IMG/VR virus record: IMGVR_UViG_3300030104_005963
Length of the DNA: 64,000 nt
Source: a virus
Direction: 5' to 3' (one strand)
Within the stretch, counting starts at the first letter, position 1. Each line of letters opens with the position of its first letter. The position numbers were made by a program, and so were the translations under genes. This document shows positions 8,949 to 48,903 of the stretch, piece after piece. The notes below the pieces were generated by a model. The model was not told the DNA's origin. It did not search any database and saw only the letters and a list, made by a program, of their open reading frames with translations.

Positions 8949-9335
8949 ATGACTGATAATGATATGAATGATATTGTGCCAGTTTCTGGTGAAATTATTC
9001 CAGAGAATAAAGATATTCAAAAAGATTATGAATATACAAGAGCAAACTTGTACTCATTAATTGAGAAAGGACAAGAAGCAATTAATGGTATAATGGAACT
9101 TGCCGGTGAAGGAGGCAGTCCCAGAGCATATGAAGTCGCAGGTCAATTAATTAAAAGTGTTGCTGATACAACCGATAAATTGGCAGATCTTCAGAAAAAA
9201 ATAAAGGATCTTGAGGAGGACGGAAATAAAACACCAAATAGTGTCACTAATAATGCCGTATTTGTTGGTTCTACATCTGAACTTCAAAAAATGTTAAAAC
9301 AAGGTTTTCTAAATAATAACACGGATCCAAAATAA
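8949..9335 (+). CDS. gp16: Terminase small subunit gp16
   Basis: DYEYTRANL...SPRAYEVAGQLIK...NNAVFVGSTSELQK. Confidence 0.9.
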   Translation: MTDNDMNDIVPVSGEIIPENKDIQKDYEYTRANLYSLIEKGQEAINGIMELAGEGGSPRAYEVAGQLIKSVADTTDKLADLQKKIKDLEEDGNKTPNSVTNNAVFVGSTSELQKMLKQGFLNNNTDPK

Positions 9336-9338
9336 AAG

Positions 9339-10685
9339 ATGTCGAAGTGTAAGACAGGTTACTATTACTGTTATACTGACAAAAAATGTAAACCAATCTC
9401 TAAAGGTTTAAAAGTCACTGCCAGATTTTCTGGTGGTGGAAGAGAACCTGAAGAAGTTGGCATTGATAAACCGCTAAATGGAAATGGAAATCACTCAAAT
9501 GGCAATGGAAATGGGAGCGGGATCTCTAATGGTGGCTCTAATGGAGGCGTCAGTGAAGGATCGCTTCATAAATGGTTTAAGGGATCCAAATCAAAAGATG
9601 GTAAAGGTGGATGGGTTAATGTCGTCACAGGTGGGACTTGCGCCAGTGATAAACCGGGAGAGGGAACACCAAAATGTGTTTCGTCAGCAAAACGAGCAAG
9701 TATGAGTAAGGCAGAAAGACTTTCTGCTGCCAGAAGAAAAAAGAAAGCAGACCCAGGACAACAACAAAAATCTGGTGCCGCAAAACCAACTTATGTCTCT
9801 ACAGATAAGAAAAAAATGAAAAAAGAAGAAGTAGAAGTAACTGAAGCAAAGGACAAAAAAGGTAAGGGTAGTGGTACAAAAGACGACTGTTATCATAAGG
9901 TAAAGTCCAGATATAGTGTATGGCCTTCTGCATATGCCTCAGGTGCCCTTGTAAAGTGCCGTAAGGTTGGTGCTGCTAATTGGGGTAATAAGTCTGAATC
10001 TGTGGATTACTCGAACTGGAGAGATGACTTTAAGGCAATGAATTATGAGTTCATCGATCTCATTAAACCAGAACCTTTGAATAATGAGCAGATTGATGAA
10101 GGACAAAAATGTTGGAAGGGTTATGAAAAGAAAGGAACCAAAAAAATGTTTGGTAAAACCTATAATAATTGTGTAAAAAAAGAAGAAACTGAAGTAAAGG
10201 AGAGTCATAAAAATCCTGAAAGTGTAAAAGGTATTGCTAAAGAATTGGATAAAGCAGTTGAAATGCATAAGAGTCAAGCAAAAAGACTTAGGAAAGCTGG
10301 TGTATCTGAAGGCAAATCTGATGGTGATCCTTGCTGGGATACTCATAAGCAAGTAGGTATGAAGAAAAAGAATGGTAGAATGGTTCCTAATTGTGTTCCA
10401 AAAGAAGAATTTTCTGATTGGAGATCCGAAATTAAAGAGGGAGCTGCCTGGACAAAAAAGTCTGGTAAAAATGCTTCAGGTGGATTAAATGAAAAAGGTC
10501 GTAAGTCTTATGAAAGAGAGAATCCTGGTTCAGATCTAAAAGCACCATCTAAAAAAGTTGGCAATAAAAGAAGAGCATCATTCTGTGCAAGAATGAAAGG
10601 TATGAAAAAGAAACTTACTTCTGCCAAAACAGCAAATGATCCAGATAGCAGAATCAATAAATCTTTGAGAGCTTGGAATTGTTAA
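9339..10685 (+). CDS. Modular Lys-rich protein between the terminase genes (candidate internal-head polyprotein)
   Basis: 448-aa ORF of short basic modules; two CW...NCV repeats. Confidence 0.75.
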   Translation: MSKCKTGYYYCYTDKKCKPISKGLKVTARFSGGGREPEEVGIDKPLNGNGNHSNGNGNGSGISNGGSNGGVSEGSLHKWFKGSKSKDGKGGWVNVVTGGTCASDKPGEGTPKCVSSAKRASMSKAERLSAARRKKKADPGQQQKSGAAKPTYVSTDKKKMKKEEVEVTEAKDKKGKGSGTKDDCYHKVKSRYSVWPSAYASGALVKCRKVGAANWGNKSESVDYSNWRDDFKAMNYEFIDLIKPEPLNNEQIDEGQKCWKGYEKKGTKKMFGKTYNNCVKKEETEVKESHKNPESVKGIAKELDKAVEMHKSQAKRLRKAGVSEGKSDGDPCWDTHKQVGMKKKNGRMVPNCVPKEEFSDWRSEIKEGAAWTKKSGKNASGGLNEKGRKSYERENPGSDLKAPSKKVGNKRRASFCARMKGMKKKLTSAKTANDPDSRINKSLRAWNC

Positions 10686-10694
10686 TTTGATGTT

Positions 10695-12338
10695 ATGAGT
10701 GAAGTATATCTTGGTAATCCTAATTTAAAAAAAGCAAATACACCGATCCAATTCACTGAAGAACAAATAATTGAGTTTCTCAAGTGCAAAGAAGATCCGG
10801 TGTATTTTGCTAATAAGTATATAAAAATTGTTTCTCTTGATGAGGGTCTAACGCAATTTCATCCATATGACTTTCAAGAAAAGTTAATTAATAATTTTCA
10901 TAATAACAGATTTAATATCTGTAAGATGCCAAGACAGACTGGTAAATCTACTACGGTAGTATCTTACCTTTTACATTATGCAGTATTTAATGATAGTGTA
11001 AATATTGGTATCCTGGCAAACAAAGCAGCTACTGCAAGAGAATTGTTGCAAAGATTGCAAACTGCTTATGAGAACTTGCCTAAATGGATGCAACAGGGTA
11101 TATTATCCTGGAACAAAGGATCTATGGAGTTAGAAAATGGCAGTAAGATATTGGCAGCTTCTACGTCTGCAAGTGCTGTCCGAGGCATGTCGTTTAACAT
11201 TCTCTTCCTCGACGAATTTGCCTTCGTTCCAAACCATGTTGCAGACTCGTTCTTTGCCTCTGTTTATCCTACTATTACTTCTGGTAAAAACACCAAGGTA
11301 ATTATCGTATCTACTCCACACGGTATGAATCATTTCTACCGTATGTGGCATGATGCCGAAAGAAGTAAAAATGAGTATATTCCCACCGATGTTCATTGGT
11401 CAGAAGTTCCTGGTAGAGATGAAAAATGGAAGGCAACAACTATTGCCAATACTTCAGAACAACAGTTCAAGGTTGAGTTTGAATGTGAGTTCTTAGGTTC
11501 GGTTAATACTCTTATTAATCCAGCGAAATTAAAAAACCTTGTATACGAGAATCCCATAAAAAGAAATGCCGGATTAGATATTTACGAAGATCCTCAGGAG
11601 AATCATGAATATCTTCTGACAATTGACGTGGCAAGAGGAATAGGAAATGATTATTCGGCATTTATTGTTTTTGACATAACACAGTTTCCGTATAAGATAG
11701 TAGCAAAATATAGAAATAATGAAATTAAACCTATGCTATTCCCAAATATTATTAATGATGTTGGGAAGGGATATAATAATGCATGGATATTAGTAGAAGT
11801 AAATGATATTGGAGATCAAGTGGCTTCTATCATGCACTATGATTTAGAATACGATAATATTCTTATGGCAGCAATGAGGGGTCGTGCTGGACAAGTCGTG
11901 GGAACAGGATTTAGTGGTAAAAAATCACAACTTGGTGTCAGAATGACTGCAGCAGTTAAAAAGTTAGGATGCTCCAACTTAAAAACTATGATGGAGGATG
12001 ATAAGTTACTGACTACAGATTATGAAATTATATCAGAACTTACCACATTTGCACAGAAAGGAAATTCTTTTGAGGCAGAAGAAGGATGTAACGATGATTT
12101 GGCAATGTGTCTTGTAATATTTTCATGGTTAGTAGCACAAGATTATTTTAAAGAAATGACAGAGAATGATGTTCGTAAAAGAATATATGAAGAACAAAGA
12201 AATCAAATAGAACAGGATATGGCACCTTTTGGATTTATAGAAACTGGATTTGAAACTAGTAACTTTGTAGATGCCGATGGAGATAGATGGTATGCAGACG
12301 AATATGGTGATAGATCTTATATGTGGGATTATATGTAA
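10695..12338 (+). CDS. gp17: Terminase large subunit gp17
   Basis: Walker A RQTGKST, Walker B LFLDEFAF, nuclease DVARG and DDLAM motifs. Confidence 0.97.
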   Translation: MSEVYLGNPNLKKANTPIQFTEEQIIEFLKCKEDPVYFANKYIKIVSLDEGLTQFHPYDFQEKLINNFHNNRFNICKMPRQTGKSTTVVSYLLHYAVFNDSVNIGILANKAATARELLQRLQTAYENLPKWMQQGILSWNKGSMELENGSKILAASTSASAVRGMSFNILFLDEFAFVPNHVADSFFASVYPTITSGKNTKVIIVSTPHGMNHFYRMWHDAERSKNEYIPTDVHWSEVPGRDEKWKATTIANTSEQQFKVEFECEFLGSVNTLINPAKLKNLVYENPIKRNAGLDIYEDPQENHEYLLTIDVARGIGNDYSAFIVFDITQFPYKIVAKYRNNEIKPMLFPNIINDVGKGYNNAWILVEVNDIGDQVASIMHYDLEYDNILMAAMRGRAGQVVGTGFSGKKSQLGVRMTAAVKKLGCSNLKTMMEDDKLLTTDYEIISELTTFAQKGNSFEAEEGCNDDLAMCLVIFSWLVAQDYFKEMTENDVRKRIYEEQRNQIEQDMAPFGFIETGFETSNFVDADGDRWYADEYGDRSYMWDYM

Positions 12339-17203: not shown

Positions 17204-17371
17204 ATGGACGACGTACTAGATTTGATTGCTTCAGGTGCTTCTGCATCTGAAATTAGTGATAAAATTAAAAATGCTTTATATGATAAGGCATCTTCAAAAA
17301 TTGATGGTATTCGTGCTGATGTCGGTGCCTCCATGTTTGATAACTCAGAAGAATCACAAGAGGAAGAATAA
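17204..17371 (+). CDS. Small acidic protein, gp67-like prohead core candidate (absent from ORF track)
   Basis: 55-aa ORF MDDVLDLIASG...SQEEE read from the DNA; follows a late promoter; stop overlaps the next ATG. Confidence 0.7.
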   Translation: MDDVLDLIASGASASEISDKIKNALYDKASSKIDGIRADVGASMFDNSEESQEEE

Positions 17372-17640
17372 TGGCAAGAACTTTATGTAAAGGTGCTGAG
17401 GCAGCTTGCCCAACAACAACTGGAGCTGCTACTAGTTTTTCAGAAGCGACAGTTGTTCGTTTAGTTAATGGTCATAGTAGCGCACACCTTGTTACGGTTG
17501 TCGAAACTCAAAGTGGAACTGTAGTTGGATCTTTTACAATGCCAGCAGGAACTGTAGAATATCTTGAAAAAAATCCAACTCAGTGTGTGTTTGCTGCAAA
17601 TGCCGGAGTATTGGGATCAAAAGTAGGATTTACCGCATAA
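17371..17640 (+). CDS. Hypothetical protein in head module
   Basis: 89-aa ORF between portal and protease. Confidence 0.75.
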   Translation: MARTLCKGAEAACPTTTGAATSFSEATVVRLVNGHSSAHLVTVVETQSGTVVGSFTMPAGTVEYLEKNPTQCVFAANAGVLGSKVGFTA

Positions 17641-17644
17641 AAAA

Positions 17645-18295
17645 ATGAAACTTATCACAGAAGAAATTTCAAATGTAAAAATTATTACCGAGGGCAAAGG
17701 TTCTGGTAAAAAATTATATATTGAAGGAGTATTTCTCCAAGGAAACATTAAAAACCGCAATGGTAGAATGTATCCTATGGAAACTCTTGCCCGTGAGGTA
17801 AAAAGATATAATGAAACTTTTGTGAATAAGGGTCGTGCTCTTGGAGAACTTGGTCATCCTGACGGACCAACTGTAAATCTTGATAGAGTTTCTCATAAAA
17901 TTACTTCTCTCTCAGAAGACGGAAATAATTTTAAAGGAAAAGCACAAATTCTTAATACCCCAATGGGTAAGATTGCATCTTCTCTTCTTGATGAAGGTGT
18001 AATGCTCGGAGTTTCTTCTCGTGGTGTTGGTTCACTTAAAACAACTAGTGAAGGTCATAAAGTTGTTGGCGAAGATTTTATGTTAGCAACAGCTGCTGAT
18101 ATTGTGGCAGACCCTTCTGCTCCCGATGCTTTTGTTTCCGGAATTATGGAAGGAAAAGAGTGGGTTTGGGAAGGAGGAATTCTTCGTGAACAACTTGCAG
18201 AAACCACTGCAAAGAGAATTAATACATTAGTTGATCAAAGAAGACTTGAAGAGCATAAGTTGAATTTATTCAACGATTTTTTATCAAATCTTTAA
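17645..18295 (+). CDS. gp21: Prohead protease gp21
   Basis: NRNGRMYP, ALGELGHP, GVSSRGVGS, DIVADPSAPDA. Confidence 0.96.
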   Translation: MKLITEEISNVKIITEGKGSGKKLYIEGVFLQGNIKNRNGRMYPMETLAREVKRYNETFVNKGRALGELGHPDGPTVNLDRVSHKITSLSEDGNNFKGKAQILNTPMGKIASSLLDEGVMLGVSSRGVGSLKTTSEGHKVVGEDFMLATAADIVADPSAPDAFVSGIMEGKEWVWEGGILREQLAETTAKRINTLVDQRRLEEHKLNLFNDFLSNL

Positions 18296-19493: not shown

Positions 19494-20867
19494 ATGCTGC
19501 AAATGCCTTCTCAAGAGGCTCTGCAGGAGAAGTGGGCACCTATCCTCAATCATGAGGGTATGGATTCAATCAAAGATAACCATCGTGCGATGGTTACTGC
19601 TCAACTCCTGGAGAACCAAGAACAAATGCTCAAGGAAGAAAGAGAATTTCTTTCTGAGGCCCCAACCAATGCTACTGGTGCAAACATCAGTAATTTCGAT
19701 CCCGTTCTGATCTCTCTGATCAGACGTTCAATGCCTAACCTGGTTGCATATGACCTGGCTGGCGTACAACCAATGAATGGTCCTACCGGACTTATCTTTG
19801 CAATGCGTTCACGTTACACTTCACAGAGTGGAACTGAAGCATTCTTCAACGAGCCAGATTCCGGATTCTCTGCACAGAGAGAAGGTAATGATGCTACTCA
19901 AGGACCTTACAGCACTGGTTCTGACGATGATACCGTTGGTTTCGGTACTGCCGGTGCTCAAATTGGAAGCAATCCTGCTGCTCTGAACCCAGAGTCAGAT
20001 GCAAATCAGGGTACATACACAGTCGGTCAGGGTATGACCACTGCTAATGCTGAAGGTCTTGGTGAATCTGGTAATGCTTTCAACGAGATGGCATTCTCAA
20101 TCGAGAAAGTCACCGTTACTGCCATGAGCAGAGCACTGAAAGCAGAGTATTCACTGGAACTGGCACAAGACCTCAAGGCTATTCATGGTCTGAATGCTGA
20201 GGCTGAACTCGCAAATATTCTCTCTACTGAGATTCTTGCTGAGATCAACCGTGAAGTCATCAGAACCATCTATAAGTCTGCTGAAGTCGGTGCTACTTTG
20301 AATACCGCAACTTCTGGTACTTTCGACCTCGACGTTGACTCTAACGGACGTTGGAGTGTTGAGAAGTTCAAGGGTCTTATTTTCCAAATGGAAAGAGATG
20401 CTAACCAGATTGCACAGAGAACTCGTAGAGGAAAGGGCAACATGATCCTCTGCTCTGCAGACGTTGCTTCCGCACTCACCATGGCTGGTGTACTTGATTA
20501 CACCCCTGCTCTGAATGCAAACCTCAATGTAGATGACACTGGTAACACCTTTGCTGGTGTTCTTGGTGGTAAGTTCCGTGTCTACATCGATCCTTATGCT
20601 GCTAACAATGCTGCTAACCAGTATTACGTAGCTGGTTATAAGGGTTCTTCACCTTATGACGCAGGACTCTTCTACTGTCCTTATGTTCCTCTCCAAATGG
20701 TTCGTGCCGTTGGTGAGAACACCTTCCAGCCAAAAATCGGGTTCAAGACTCGTTATGGCATGGTCGCTAACCCATTTGCCGAAGGCACCAATACAACCAA
20801 CACTGGTCGTATTACTGCCAGCAGCAACCGTTACTACAGACGTGTTAAGGTTGCCAACCTTATGTGA
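19494..20867 (+). CDS. gp23: Major capsid protein gp23
   Basis: GVQPMNGPTGLIFAMRSRY, RALKAEYSLELAQDLKAIHG, FQPKIGFKTRYG. Confidence 0.98.
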   Translation: MLQMPSQEALQEKWAPILNHEGMDSIKDNHRAMVTAQLLENQEQMLKEEREFLSEAPTNATGANISNFDPVLISLIRRSMPNLVAYDLAGVQPMNGPTGLIFAMRSRYTSQSGTEAFFNEPDSGFSAQREGNDATQGPYSTGSDDDTVGFGTAGAQIGSNPAALNPESDANQGTYTVGQGMTTANAEGLGESGNAFNEMAFSIEKVTVTAMSRALKAEYSLELAQDLKAIHGLNAEAELANILSTEILAEINREVIRTIYKSAEVGATLNTATSGTFDLDVDSNGRWSVEKFKGLIFQMERDANQIAQRTRRGKGNMILCSADVASALTMAGVLDYTPALNANLNVDDTGNTFAGVLGGKFRVYIDPYAANNAANQYYVAGYKGSSPYDAGLFYCPYVPLQMVRAVGENTFQPKIGFKTRYGMVANPFAEGTNTTNTGRITASSNRYYRRVKVANLM

Positions 20868-47519: not shown

Positions 47520-47746
47520 ACTCACAAATACTTGACTTGATAAAGTCCTTTGAACCGAATTCAAAAAATGGTAGAGATAATTATGAGCAACTTCTTATTC
47601 ATATCTATCATACTTTTGATAAAAGAATTAACTTCACAAAGTCTCAGACATTAAAAGATAAATATAAACATATGCGTCAAGGTGCATTAGAATACATTGT
47701 ATTGCACAAACAACAGGTAATAAGAGAATTAAGTAAAAGGAAGTGA
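47516..47746 (+). CDS. Hypothetical protein
   Basis: 76-aa ORF coupled to both neighbours. Confidence 0.65.
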   Translation: MNSQILDLIKSFEPNSKNGRDNYEQLLIHIYHTFDKRINFTKSQTLKDKYKHMRQGALEYIVLHKQQVIRELSKRK

Positions 47747-48903
47747 TGAAGAATTTTTTTCAATTTTTATCTGAATCAACTGCAGTCCAGCAGGCAAAAA
47801 GAATGGGACTGGTTGGTGATGGTCATGGTGGATGGTATGATAAGAAGGGTGAGTTTGTAGCAAAAACTGAGAAAGGACAACTTAAGTTTTATAATAAAAG
47901 GCAACGTGTTGGTAAACAAGATCCACCAAATACTGATACCGAGAAAAGATTATCTCAGGCAACTTCAAGTAGTGAAATTCAAGAACCACAAGGTCCGCCT
48001 GAAGTTGAAAAAACAAAAGGAACTTTGACCGTTGCTTTTGGTAGATTCAATCCTCCTACCACAGGACATGAAAAACTTTTGGATACAGTCGCATCAAGTT
48101 CTGATGAAGGTGACTATATTATTGTCCCATCACGTAGTCAGGATAAGAAAAAGAATCCTTTAGATCCTGATACTAAAGTTGAGATTATGAAACAAATGTA
48201 TCCTGGTCATAGTGGCAAAATTGTAAATGATCCTGGTAATAGAACAATTTTTGATGTACTGAAGAAAGCACATACTGATGGATATGCCGGAGTTCGTATT
48301 CTTGGTGGTGCAGATAGAGTAAAAGAATTTGAAAAACTAGCAAATGATTATAATGGTAAACTTTATAACTTTGATAATGTAGAAGTTCTTTCTGCTGGAG
48401 ATAGAGATCCTGATTCTGAAGGAACAGAAGGAATGTCTGCATCAAAACAAAGAAAGGCAGCTGCCGAAGGTGATTATAATTCTTTCAGAAAAGGTGTTCC
48501 GACATCTATGAACGATAAACAAGCAAAGGAGTTATATAATACTCTTCGTACTGCAATGGGTATTAAAGAAGGTTGGAGTCTTTGGCAAATTGCACCTAAG
48601 TTTGATTGGAAAAATCTTCGTGAAAATTTTGTAAAGAAAAACATTTACAGGGTTGGTGATATTGTAGAAAATCTCAATACTGGTCTGGTTGGTAAGATTA
48701 TTCGTAGAGGCACTAACTATCTTATCTGTGTCACCGAAGATGATATTATGTTTAAGTCTTGGATTAAAGATGTAACCGATGTGTCTGGTGTTCCTGCAAA
48801 TCAAAGAGAAGTTGGAACCGATGCTCTTCGTAAGTATGCAGAGACTATGGTGAAGGGTTCTAGTTGGGGCAGGCAATTCATAAATAAATATAAGAAAAAG
48901 TAA
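47746..48903 (+). CDS. HxGH-superfamily nucleotidyltransferase (cytidylyltransferase/NMNAT-like)
   Basis: VAFGRFNPPTTGHEKL, ILGGADR, MSASKQR. Confidence 0.85.
   Translation: MKNFFQFLSESTAVQQAKRMGLVGDGHGGWYDKKGEFVAKTEKGQLKFYNKRQRVGKQDPPNTDTEKRLSQATSSSEIQEPQGPPEVEKTKGTLTVAFGRFNPPTTGHEKLLDTVASSSDEGDYIIVPSRSQDKKKNPLDPDTKVEIMKQMYPGHSGKIVNDPGNRTIFDVLKKAHTDGYAGVRILGGADRVKEFEKLANDYNGKLYNFDNVEVLSAGDRDPDSEGTEGMSASKQRKAAAEGDYNSFRKGVPTSMNDKQAKELYNTLRTAMGIKEGWSLWQIAPKFDWKNLRENFVKKNIYRVGDIVENLNTGLVGKIIRRGTNYLICVTEDDIMFKSWIKDVTDVSGVPANQREVGTDALRKYAETMVKGSSWGRQFINKYKKK

What the first reader, a model, noticed from the sequence alone, without database searches (positions are those of the whole stretch)
9339..10685. 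Protein between gp16 and gp17 looks like a polyprotein with six gp21-type sites
By my count it has seven [ILV]xE motifs, six followed by A/G/S: VSE|GSLHKW, VTE|AKDKK, IDE|GQKCW, VKE|SHKNP, VSE|GKSDG, IKE|GAAW. Each opens a Lys-rich module. Two modules repeat a CW-x~20-NCVxKEE motif, and YSNWRDDF / FSDWRSEIKE recur just before cleavage-like sites, possibly as an internal targeting signal.
Basis: partly seen in the sequence, partly recalled or inferred. Interest (0 to 1): 0.72.

Follow-up and report, generated by a model that had tools for sequence, protein, structure and literature searches.

The report
Cyanophage head-cargo polyprotein, protease-cut modules
This 448-residue gene of a T4-like marine cyanophage is a chain of seven small, mostly basic modules, six of them preceded by the short motif that the phage's own head-maturation protease cuts, so one gene probably yields several mini-proteins packed with the DNA in the capsid, though no cut has been measured.

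Summary
The ORF at 9339-10685 has seven [ILV]xE motifs, six followed by G/A/S (shuffle p about 2.5e-4). They divide the protein into seven pieces of 4-10 kDa, and six of these carry conserved cysteines (five a pair, the leader three).

- Homologues differ by whole modules.
- 89% of 408 module starts have a hydrophobic-x-Glu ending 0-8 residues upstream, against 16% at random positions.
- P1 Glu and an aliphatic P3 are kept while P2 varies.

Three further lines of support:
- The modules occur as single small genes in nine phages that lack a gp21-type (Peptidase_S77) protease. Fused forms occur in five phages that have one.
- Some homologues carry a T4-like capsid-targeting leader (MKTFEQFTE|GSLHKWF) at the junction where this protein has VSE|GSLHKWF.
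- The family (T4-GC119) was detected in purified S-SM1 and S-SCSM1 virions.

This phage encodes gp21. Its gp23 and a leader-bearing nucleotidyltransferase both carry FLSE|A/S.

Cleavage, head location and function are inferred, not shown. This scan has already followed up the same family in at least eight other genomes with the same reading. I found no published description of it as a polyprotein. I class it as a new variant of T4-type internal head proteins.

The parts
9339..10685 (+). Whole ORF: 448 aa, 49 kDa, pI 9.8, 78 Lys and 13 Cys. It is the candidate polyprotein and belongs to family T4-GC119 of Sullivan et al. 2010.
   Evidence: family assignment
9339..9557 (+). N-terminal leader, aa 1-73. 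It has a three-Cys hairpin (MSKCKTGYYYCYTDKKCKPI) and a Gly/Asn-rich spacer, and ends in VSE73. In homologues it is optional, replaced by MxE/MINE or by a T4 CTS-like leader.
9558..9845 (+). Module A, aa 74-169 (GSLHKWF...). It has the Cys pair 101/113 and pI 10.0, and ends in the linker KKEEVEVTE169.
   Evidence: an apparent stand-alone copy lies in Roseobacter phage CRP-901
9846..10100 (+). Module B, aa 170-254. The basic core is 170-220 (Cys pair 184/207, pI 9.8). The acidic tail is 221-254 (SVDYSNWRDDF...IKPEPL..IDE254, pI 4.1).
   Evidence: a stand-alone 54-aa ORF of the core alone lies in CRP-901; weak sub-threshold DUF5872 similarity
10101..10202 (+). Module C, aa 255-288 (GQKCW...NCVKKEETEVKE288). 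It is a predicted beta-hairpin with a Cys at each end (258/278).
10203..10310 (+). Module D, aa 289-324 (SHKNPES...AGVSE324). It is a predicted single helix with no Cys, and is present or absent as a unit in homologues.
10311..10439 (+). Module C', aa 325-367 (GKSDGDPCWDTHK...NCVPKEEFSDWRSEIKE367). It is a second Cys-stapled hairpin (332/352), paralogous to module C.
10440..10682 (+). Module E, aa 368-448. This is Pfam DUF6321, with pI 10.6 and the Cys pair 416/448. It contains the seventh motif, LNE385.
   Evidence: 80.3 bits against a cut-off of 28.5; stand-alone genes of 71-94 aa in seven other phages
17645..18295 (+). gp21 prohead protease (Peptidase_S77), the proposed processing enzyme. 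Its own N-terminus carries LITE6|E and IITE16|G.
   Evidence: E 5e-37
19494..20867 (+). gp23 major capsid protein. Its propeptide carries FLSE55|A just upstream of the region that aligns with mature T4 gp23*.
47746..48903 (+). Cytidylyltransferase-like protein that starts MKNFFQFLSE|S. It is the only ORF in the window with a T4 CTS-like N-terminus. It suggests that the T4-type targeting-and-cleavage logic is used by this phage.
   Evidence: the family (T4-GC190) was detected in S-SM1 virions

Best explanation
The ORF encodes a precursor (polyprotein) of small internal head proteins.

Proposed mechanism:
1. It is made late, together with the packaging and head genes.
2. It is taken into the assembling prohead core.
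3. The phage's gp21 (Peptidase_S77) cuts it after Glu at the [V/I/L/M]-x-E junctions E73, E169, E254, E288, E324 and E367, and perhaps E385.
4. This releases six or seven peptides of 4-10 kDa, most of them very basic, and six of the seven carry conserved cysteines (five a pair, the leader three).
5. These peptides stay with the packaged DNA and may enter the host with it.
6. The acidic linker tails, such as 221-254, act as spacers or propeptides.

Shown by sequence and comparison: the motif, the module structure, the shuffling of modules at the junctions, stand-alone versions of the modules in phages that lack the protease, and capsid-targeting-like leaders at the same junction in homologues. 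Published mass spectrometry shows that relatives of the protein are in virions.

Inferred: the cuts themselves, the location inside the head, DNA binding, disulfide formation and injection.
For: 1. Motif. Six [ILV]xE[GAS] sites against 0.87 expected.
2. Accessibility. All six sites lie in coil or low-pLDDT stretches between small predicted elements.
3. Modularity. Splitting 24 homologues at [ILVM]xE| yields recurring modules in different orders and numbers. P-SSM2 gp114 has the order A-C-B-E.
4. Module starts. Of 408 module starts in 145 representatives at 50% identity, 89% have [ILVMF]xE ending 0-8 aa upstream, against 16% at random positions. Logos built at a fixed offset from the module-A and module-E anchors give P1 Glu 67-79% and an aliphatic P3, with P2 free; the module-B logo shows the same pattern shifted by one position.
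5. Homology breakpoints. These lie within 2 aa of a site 19-22% of the time against 8.5% at random. Alignment ends peak exactly at the Glu.
6. Same logic elsewhere in this phage. gp21 is Peptidase_S77. gp23 has FLSE|A, and a CTS-type protein starts MKNFFQFLSE|S.
7. T4 rule. The T4 review states that gp21 cleaves after Glu following a short motif, that CTS residues 8 and 10 govern processing, and that Asp at position 10 blocks it (PMC9026906).
8. CTS-like leaders. Homologues carry them at the module-A junction: MKTFEQFTE|GSLHKWF, MKTFSQFTTE|GNLHKWF and MKTFQQFLDTPITE|G. Paraglaciecola GD virus 1 gp34 reads (M)KTFKQFTLE| followed by two C' modules.
9. Stand-alone modules. DUF6321 is a single 71-94 aa gene in seven non-T4 phages. 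Its N-terminus lies 2-3 residues from the predicted cut in the two closest matches (MAKTPAW and MAKSPAW against E|GAAW). The module B core is a 54-aa ORF in CRP-901.
10. Link to the protease. PF03420 is present in all five phages tested that have fused forms. It is absent from the nine with single-module genes.
11. Virion association. T4-GC119 is listed as 'Structural protein' with 13 peptide counts in S-SM1 (PMC3037559 Suppl. Table 8). S-SCSM1_29 is annotated as a virion protein from mass spectrometry (PMC9602691).
Against: - No cleavage product, N-terminus or gel mobility is known for any family member. All mass-spectrometry data found were shotgun tryptic lists without peptide detail.
- This protein has no CTS-like N-terminus. 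How it would enter the prohead is therefore unexplained.
- Four of the six sites have Val at P3, whereas the canonical T4 rule is Leu/Ile.
- Two linkers share about 35 nt at 86-90% identity. Part of the motif conservation could therefore be inherited linker sequence that also serves recombination.
- A conserved LNE lies inside DUF6321 in fused forms. Either this is an extra cut or not every such motif is cut.
- Syn9 has the gene, but the protein was not detected in its virions.
- Halorubrum virus BLv36 embeds a C'-like module in a larger protein without having S77.
- The presence/absence tally is small and the phages are related to one another.
Confidence: 0.65

Rival explanations
1. It is an uncleaved 'beads-on-a-string' virion protein. 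The small basic modules stay joined by flexible acidic linkers. The hydrophobic-x-Glu motif is inherited linker sequence that mainly provides microhomology for swapping modules, and is not a protease site.
For: - The linkers are similar at the DNA level.
- The protein is largely disordered in the AF2 model.
- It has no CTS.
- No cleavage data exist.
- An LNE motif sits inside a conserved module.
Against: - P1 Glu and the aliphatic P3 are kept across unrelated linker contexts while P2 varies. Examples are GGGMSE, DSKDVKE, PPKKELDE, GPDLMGE, KKAEVKE and RKAGVSE.
- CTS-like leaders end at the same junction.
- The modules are autonomous genes where S77 is absent, and are fused only where it is present.
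- The same motif marks gp23 and the CTS protein of this phage.
Confidence: 0.17
2. Only the N-terminal leader (aa 1-73) is removed, as with T4 internal proteins. The remaining 375 residues or so stay as one basic internal protein, and the internal motifs are not cut or only rarely cut.
For: - The best-supported junction is the one before module A, where CTS-like leaders sit in homologues.
- In T4, the internal proteins lose only their leader (PMC9026906).
Against: - The internal junctions show the same P3/P1 conservation and the same breakpoint enrichment as the first one.
- Stand-alone B and E modules end or start near the internal junctions.
Confidence: 0.13
3. It is not head cargo. It is a DNA-packaging or DNA-condensing accessory protein that acts with the terminase, as its position between gp16 and gp17 might suggest.
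For: - Gene position.
- Strongly basic composition.
Against: - The position is not fixed. In P-SSM2 the gene lies before gp16, and in S-SCSM1 tail-fibre genes lie between it and gp16.
- The family is found in purified virions.
- Stand-alone modules sit next to capsid genes in T7-like cyanophages.
Confidence: 0.05

Closest known systems
Phage T4 internal proteins IPI, IPII, IPIII and Alt (capsid targeting sequence plus gp21 processing)
   Same: - Small basic proteins carried in the head of a T4-type phage.
- Cleavage motif of hydrophobic-x-Glu.
- The phage encodes a Peptidase_S77 gp21.
- Some family members start with a leader resembling the T4 CTS (MKTF.QF..E).
   Different: - One gene strings six or seven unrelated modules together with an internal site before each, whereas T4 has one leader per protein.
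- This member has a three-Cys hairpin and a Gly/Asn spacer in place of a CTS.
- The modules carry conserved Cys pairs.
- No sequence homology to the T4 internal proteins was found.
T4 prohead core proteins gp22, gp67 and gp68, cut by gp21 at several sites into internal peptides
   Same: - Multiple gp21-type sites within one chain.
- The products include small peptides, some of which stay in the head (gp67 is listed as 'precursor to internal peptides' in the file seen).
   Different: - Those proteins are acidic scaffold components.
- This protein is basic and modular, and is not related to the scaffold family. The window's gp22 is a separate gene (T4_CASP).
Inner-body and ejection proteins of giant phages phiKZ, 201phi2-1 and SPN3US, processed by gp21-like proteases after Glu
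   Same: - Extensive cleavage of head cargo after Glu, with few other determinants.
- Propeptides that carry several sites (PMC9026906).
   Different: - Those are large separate proteins with N-terminal propeptides.
- They are not chains of mini-proteins, and there is no sequence relationship.
Pfam DUF6321 (PF19846) and cyanophage gene cluster T4-GC119 ('structural protein', Sullivan et al. 2010)
   Same: - The C-terminal 81 residues are a clear DUF6321 domain.
- The gene is the T4-GC119 member of this phage.
   Different: Neither entry assigns a function or notes the modular, site-delimited build.

Membership tests
Substrates of T4-type prohead protease gp21 (internal head proteins) | The phage encodes a Peptidase_S77 (gp21) protease | tested here: met
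   Window 17645-18295 matches PF03420 with E 5.2e-37 and 127.7 bits, against a cut-off of 27.
Substrates of T4-type prohead protease gp21 (internal head proteins) | Cleavage motif of hydrophobic (L/I)-x-Glu at accessible positions | tested here: met
   There are six [V/I]xE|[G/A/S] sites in predicted coil. P1 Glu and the aliphatic P3 are conserved across the family. Four of the six sites have Val rather than Leu/Ile at P3.
Substrates of T4-type prohead protease gp21 (internal head proteins) | N-terminal capsid targeting sequence (about 10 residues, MK-x-aromatic-x-x-aromatic-hydrophobic-x-E) | tested here: not met
   This protein starts MSKCKTGYYYC. The only CTS-like N-terminus in the window is at 47746. 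Homologues P0362, P0176, P0258 and P0199 do have one.
Substrates of T4-type prohead protease gp21 (internal head proteins) | Actual cleavage by gp21 during head maturation | not testable with these tools
   The papers and supplements I read contained no N-terminal or intact-mass data.
Substrates of T4-type prohead protease gp21 (internal head proteins) | Presence in mature heads | tested here: inconclusive
   Orthologues were detected in whole virions of S-SM1 (13 counts) and S-SCSM1, but not in Syn9. Head and tail were not resolved. This phage itself is untested.
Pfam DUF6321 (PF19846) | Match above the gathering score | tested here: met
   Residues 376-446 score 80.3 bits against 28.5, and cover profile positions 1-72 of 72.
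T4-GC119 (Sullivan et al. 2010) | Homology and position shared with the listed members | tested here: met
   P-SSM2 gp114 is 816 nt and lies next to gp16. This matches the T4-GC119 size and neighbour given in the supplement. It shares modules A, B, C and E with this protein.
Pfam DUF5872 (PF19197) | Match above the gathering score (module B) | tested here: not met
   The score is 14.9 bits against a cut-off of 27.5, with E 0.04. The Atlas look-alikes are only leads.

The most novel reading that the evidence does not exclude
The gene is a combinatorial cassette array of injected mini-proteins. Each module would be an independent effector, acting as a DNA-coating, anti-restriction or host-takeover peptide. 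Each would be locked by a disulfide in the extracellular virion and released in the reducing cytoplasm. Protease-site linkers would let phages shuffle, gain and lose effectors as units. This would be a polyprotein strategy otherwise known from RNA viruses, used here by a tailed DNA phage to diversify head cargo across the marine T4-like phages.
Probability: 0.2. Interest if true: 0.85.

Novelty: new variant of a known kind. Interest (0 to 1): 0.6.

Why it matters
- T4-like cyanophages are among the most abundant viruses in the ocean. This family is very large: 7,169 clusters at 50% identity in the library searched. It is present in 15 of 16 reference cyanomyoviruses. Records nevertheless call it hypothetical or just 'structural'.
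- If the reading is right, one gene supplies a variable set of small basic proteins to the capsid. That would extend the T4 internal-protein paradigm to a polyprotein format.
- It would also give a simple sequence rule for predicting head cargo, and would explain the extreme length variation of the gene (276-2985 nt).
- The reading can be tested directly on cultured phages such as S-SM1, S-SCSM1 or S-B43, using intact-mass or N-terminal proteomics.

Tried and rejected
- Pairwise global alignments to locate indels. These were too noisy, because unrelated modules are forced to align. Both ends fell on a site in only 14 of 540 gaps, against 0.5 expected. I replaced this with local-alignment breakpoints and anchor-based tests.
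- Small neighbouring ORFs of pelagiphage Lederberg as homologues of modules A and B. BLASTP found nothing, so I dropped this.
- Pfam on single modules. Only sub-threshold hits appeared: DUF5872 at 14.9 bits and HVO_A0114 at 13.8 bits.
- AF2 with a 49-sequence alignment gave mean pLDDT 43. That is too low for a fold search, so none was run.
- ESM Atlas gave only unnamed small viral clusters.
- Literature searches for DUF6321, for cyanophage polyproteins and for internal head proteins found no description of this gene. The Syn9 virion paper is not in the library. The P-SCSP1u cryo-EM paper does not mention the small DUF6321 gene.
- The S-SCSM1 supplement lists no peptides for the orthologue.
I therefore checked the genomic context of the CTS-bearing homologues only through the phage collection.

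Full report
**What is there**

The window is part of a T4-like cyanomyovirus. In the large-terminase region covered by the search, its closest relatives are S-SKS1, S-SCSM1 and S-SM2, at about 77-80% nucleotide identity.

The ORF at 9339-10685 (+) encodes 448 residues. It lies between a gp16-like small terminase (8949-9335) and the large terminase (10695-12338); both were confirmed by Pfam. The protein is very basic: 78 Lys, pI 9.8 and 13 Cys. Pfam recognises only DUF6321 in the last 72 residues. PHROGs gives only families of unknown function.

**Checking the observation**

There are seven [ILV]xE motifs, and six are followed by G/A/S: VSE73|G, VTE169|A, IDE254|G, VKE288|S, VSE324|G and IKE367|G. 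The seventh is LNE385|K, inside DUF6321.

Composition-preserving shuffles give 0.87 such sites on average, and six or more in 0.025% of trials.

The sites cut the chain into seven pieces:

| Piece | Residues | Cys |
|---|---|---|
| Leader | 1-73 | three |
| Module A | 74-169 | pair |
| Module B with an acidic tail | 170-254 | pair |
| Module C | 255-288 | pair |
| Module D | 289-324 | none |
| Module C' | 325-367 | pair |
| Module E (DUF6321) | 368-448 | pair |

The pieces are 4-10 kDa with pI 8.0-10.6.

An AlphaFold2 model with 49 homologues is mostly disordered (mean pLDDT 43). It places hairpins on C and C', a helix on D and helices on E. All six sites fall in coil.

The family is very large. 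It gives 505 phage records by tblastn, 8,000 or more close proteins, and 7,169 clusters at 50% identity.

- Splitting 24 homologues at [ILVM]xE| gives the same modules again and again, in different numbers and orders. There are many optional modules, and nearly all end in hydrophobic-x-Glu. P-SSM2 gp114 has the order A-C-B-E.
- In 120 close homologues, the stretch upstream of each module core carries the motif whichever module precedes it. Examples are GGGMSE, DSKDVKE, LEKKMTE, KKEEVEVTE, PPKKELDE, GPDLMGE, KKAEVKE, RKAGVSE and SDWRSELEE.
- In 145 representatives at 50% identity, 89% of 408 module starts have the motif ending 0-8 residues upstream. The figure for random positions is 16%.
- Logos built at a fixed offset from the module-A and module-E anchors give P1 Glu 67-79% (2.8-3.4 bits), an aliphatic P3 and a free P2. 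The module-B logo shows the same pattern shifted by one position, because the offset varies. Most exceptions keep the Glu and move the hydrophobic residue to P4.
- Internal breakpoints of local homology fall within 2 residues of a site 19-22% of the time, against 8.5% at random. Alignment ends peak exactly at the Glu.

**Does this phage use T4-type processing?**

- gp21 (17645-18295) is a clear Peptidase_S77.
- gp23 carries FLSE55|A just upstream of the part that aligns with mature T4 gp23*.
- The cytidylyltransferase-like protein at 47746 starts MKNFFQFLSE|S. It is the only ORF in the window with a T4 capsid-targeting-like N-terminus. Its family was found in S-SM1 virions.
- The T4 review states that gp21 cleaves after Glu following a short motif. 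It also states that residues 4 and 7 of the 10-residue targeting sequence direct packaging, that residues 8 and 10 direct processing, and that Asp at position 10 blocks cleavage (PMC9026906).

**New supporting evidence**

First, several homologues replace the Cys-hairpin leader with a T4-like targeting leader that ends at the same junction:
- MKTFEQFTE|GSLHKWF. This is P0362, and also a 454-aa ORF of Marine virus AG-345-E15, which lies next to a leader-bearing transferase.
- MKTFSQFTTE|GNLHKWF.
- MKTFQQFLDTPITE|G.
- MKSFKSFTETPVDE|ACWKGY.

Paraglaciecola GD virus 1 gp34 reads (M)KTFKQFTLE| followed by two C' modules.

Second, the modules are autonomous genes elsewhere.
- DUF6321 is a single gene of 71-94 aa in seven non-T4 phages. 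In T7-like cyanophages it lies beside the capsid genes. In the two closest matches (pelagiphage Lederberg and Planktothrix phage Pra-JY27) its N-terminus (MAKTPAW, MAKSPAW) falls 2-3 residues from the predicted cut E|GAAW.
- Roseobacter phage CRP-901 has an unannotated 54-aa ORF equal to the basic core of module B, without the acidic tail. A module-A-like ORF follows in the next frame.
- S-TIM5 has separate small genes for C' and for an E variant.

Third, architecture tracks the protease.
- PF03420 is present in the five phages with fused forms: this window, S-SCSM1, S-B43, P-SSM2 and GD virus 1.
- It is absent from the nine with single-module genes.
- One record does not fit. Halorubrum virus BLv36 has a C'-like module inside a 500-aa protein and no S77.

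**Experimental anchor**

The family is T4-GC119 of Sullivan et al. 2010. It is listed as 'Structural protein' with 13 peptide counts in S-SM1 virions. It is absent from the S-PM2 genome. It is present in Syn9 but was not detected in Syn9 virions. Gene sizes range from 276 to 2985 nt across 15 of 16 cyanomyoviruses (PMC3037559 Suppl. Table 8). The S-SCSM1 orthologue is annotated as a virion protein from mass spectrometry (PMC9602691). None of these data resolve fragment sizes or N-termini.

**Interpretation**

The most economical reading is a head-cargo polyprotein cut by gp21 into small basic peptides that carry conserved cysteines. That is a polyprotein version of T4's internal proteins. I give this 0.65.

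The main rivals are:
- an uncleaved bead-string protein whose linkers serve recombination (0.17). Two linkers do share about 35 nt at 86-90% identity, and the two ideas are not exclusive.
- removal of the leader only (0.13).
- a packaging accessory protein (0.05).

Weak points:
- There is no measured cut.
- This member has no targeting leader.
- Val rather than Leu/Ile sits at P3 in four sites.
- A conserved LNE lies inside DUF6321. It reads LNE in 156 of 173 matches to that position in the longer (250 aa or more) family proteins, but in none of the seven stand-alone genes.

**Relation to earlier work**

The library searches found no paper that describes this gene as a polyprotein. Within this scan, the same family has already been flagged and followed up in at least eight other genomes with the same reading. 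Those notes are AI readings and I did not count them as evidence.

Noticed in passing
L005:2471-2635 and L005:2592-2867 (Roseobacter phage CRP-901, OQ401623.1): In an unannotated gap after gp68 lies a 54-aa ATG ORF equal to the core of module B. A module-A-like ORF follows in the next frame and overlaps it by 44 nt. Its only in-frame start is TTG. The phage has no Peptidase_S77.
   Followed up: partly
window 10485-10493 (LNE383-385 inside DUF6321): The Glu of GGLNE|KGR is present in 156 of 173 matches to that position in the longer (250 aa or more) family proteins. It is replaced (LNA, LTA or MTA) in all seven stand-alone DUF6321 genes of S77-less phages. It may be an additional cut site, or it may be unrelated.
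   Followed up: partly
L007:4237-6228 (P-SSM2 PCMG_00128): A large protein after gp16 starts MNNIRVKQESLNNWREEFSINE|EIEGG...VETVDIIKPEPIKG. This is the same acidic element as the tail of module B (window aa 221-254). It may be a propeptide or targeting element.
   Followed up: no
L006:2492-2818, L001:5542-5862, L012:4804-5121: In S-RIM2, S-SCSM1 and S-B43, the gene just after the polyprotein homologue starts with a T4 CTS-like leader (MKSYSQFMSE|S, MKTFKQFMSE|S, MKSFQDFLQE|S). This window has no such gene between the polyprotein and gp17.
   Followed up: partly
L015:753-1220 (Paraglaciecola Antarctic GD virus 1 gp34): The gene is annotated with a TTG start and reads (M)KTFKQFTLE| followed by two tandem C'-type modules, each ending in xxE, and then an unrelated 76-aa tail. 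This 150-kb phage has a Peptidase_S77 (E 8e-46). The module family and the CTS logic therefore reach beyond cyanophages.
   Followed up: partly
L014:642-1684 (Halorubrum tailed virus BLv36 ORF44): A C'-like module (DPCWDGY...NCVPE) flanked by xxE motifs sits near the N-terminus of a roughly 500-aa protein of a haloarchaeal virus that has no Peptidase_S77.
   Followed up: no
window 17371-17640 (+): An 89-aa ORF lies between portal gp20 and gp21, in the position of gp67/gp68 in T4. It has no Pfam match, it is not acidic like gp67, and it contains one VVE|T motif.
   Followed up: no
window 17645-17692 (gp21 N-terminus): gp21 itself starts MKLITE|EISNVKIITE|GKGSGKK. That gives two motif copies in the first 16 residues, consistent with the self-processing discussed for T4 gp21.
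   Followed up: no
window 9819-9853 and 10176-10201: The A/B and C/D linkers (KKEEVEVTE and KKEETEVKE) are near-repeats at the DNA level (86-90% over about 22-35 nt). These are possible recombination points for module swapping.
   Followed up: partly
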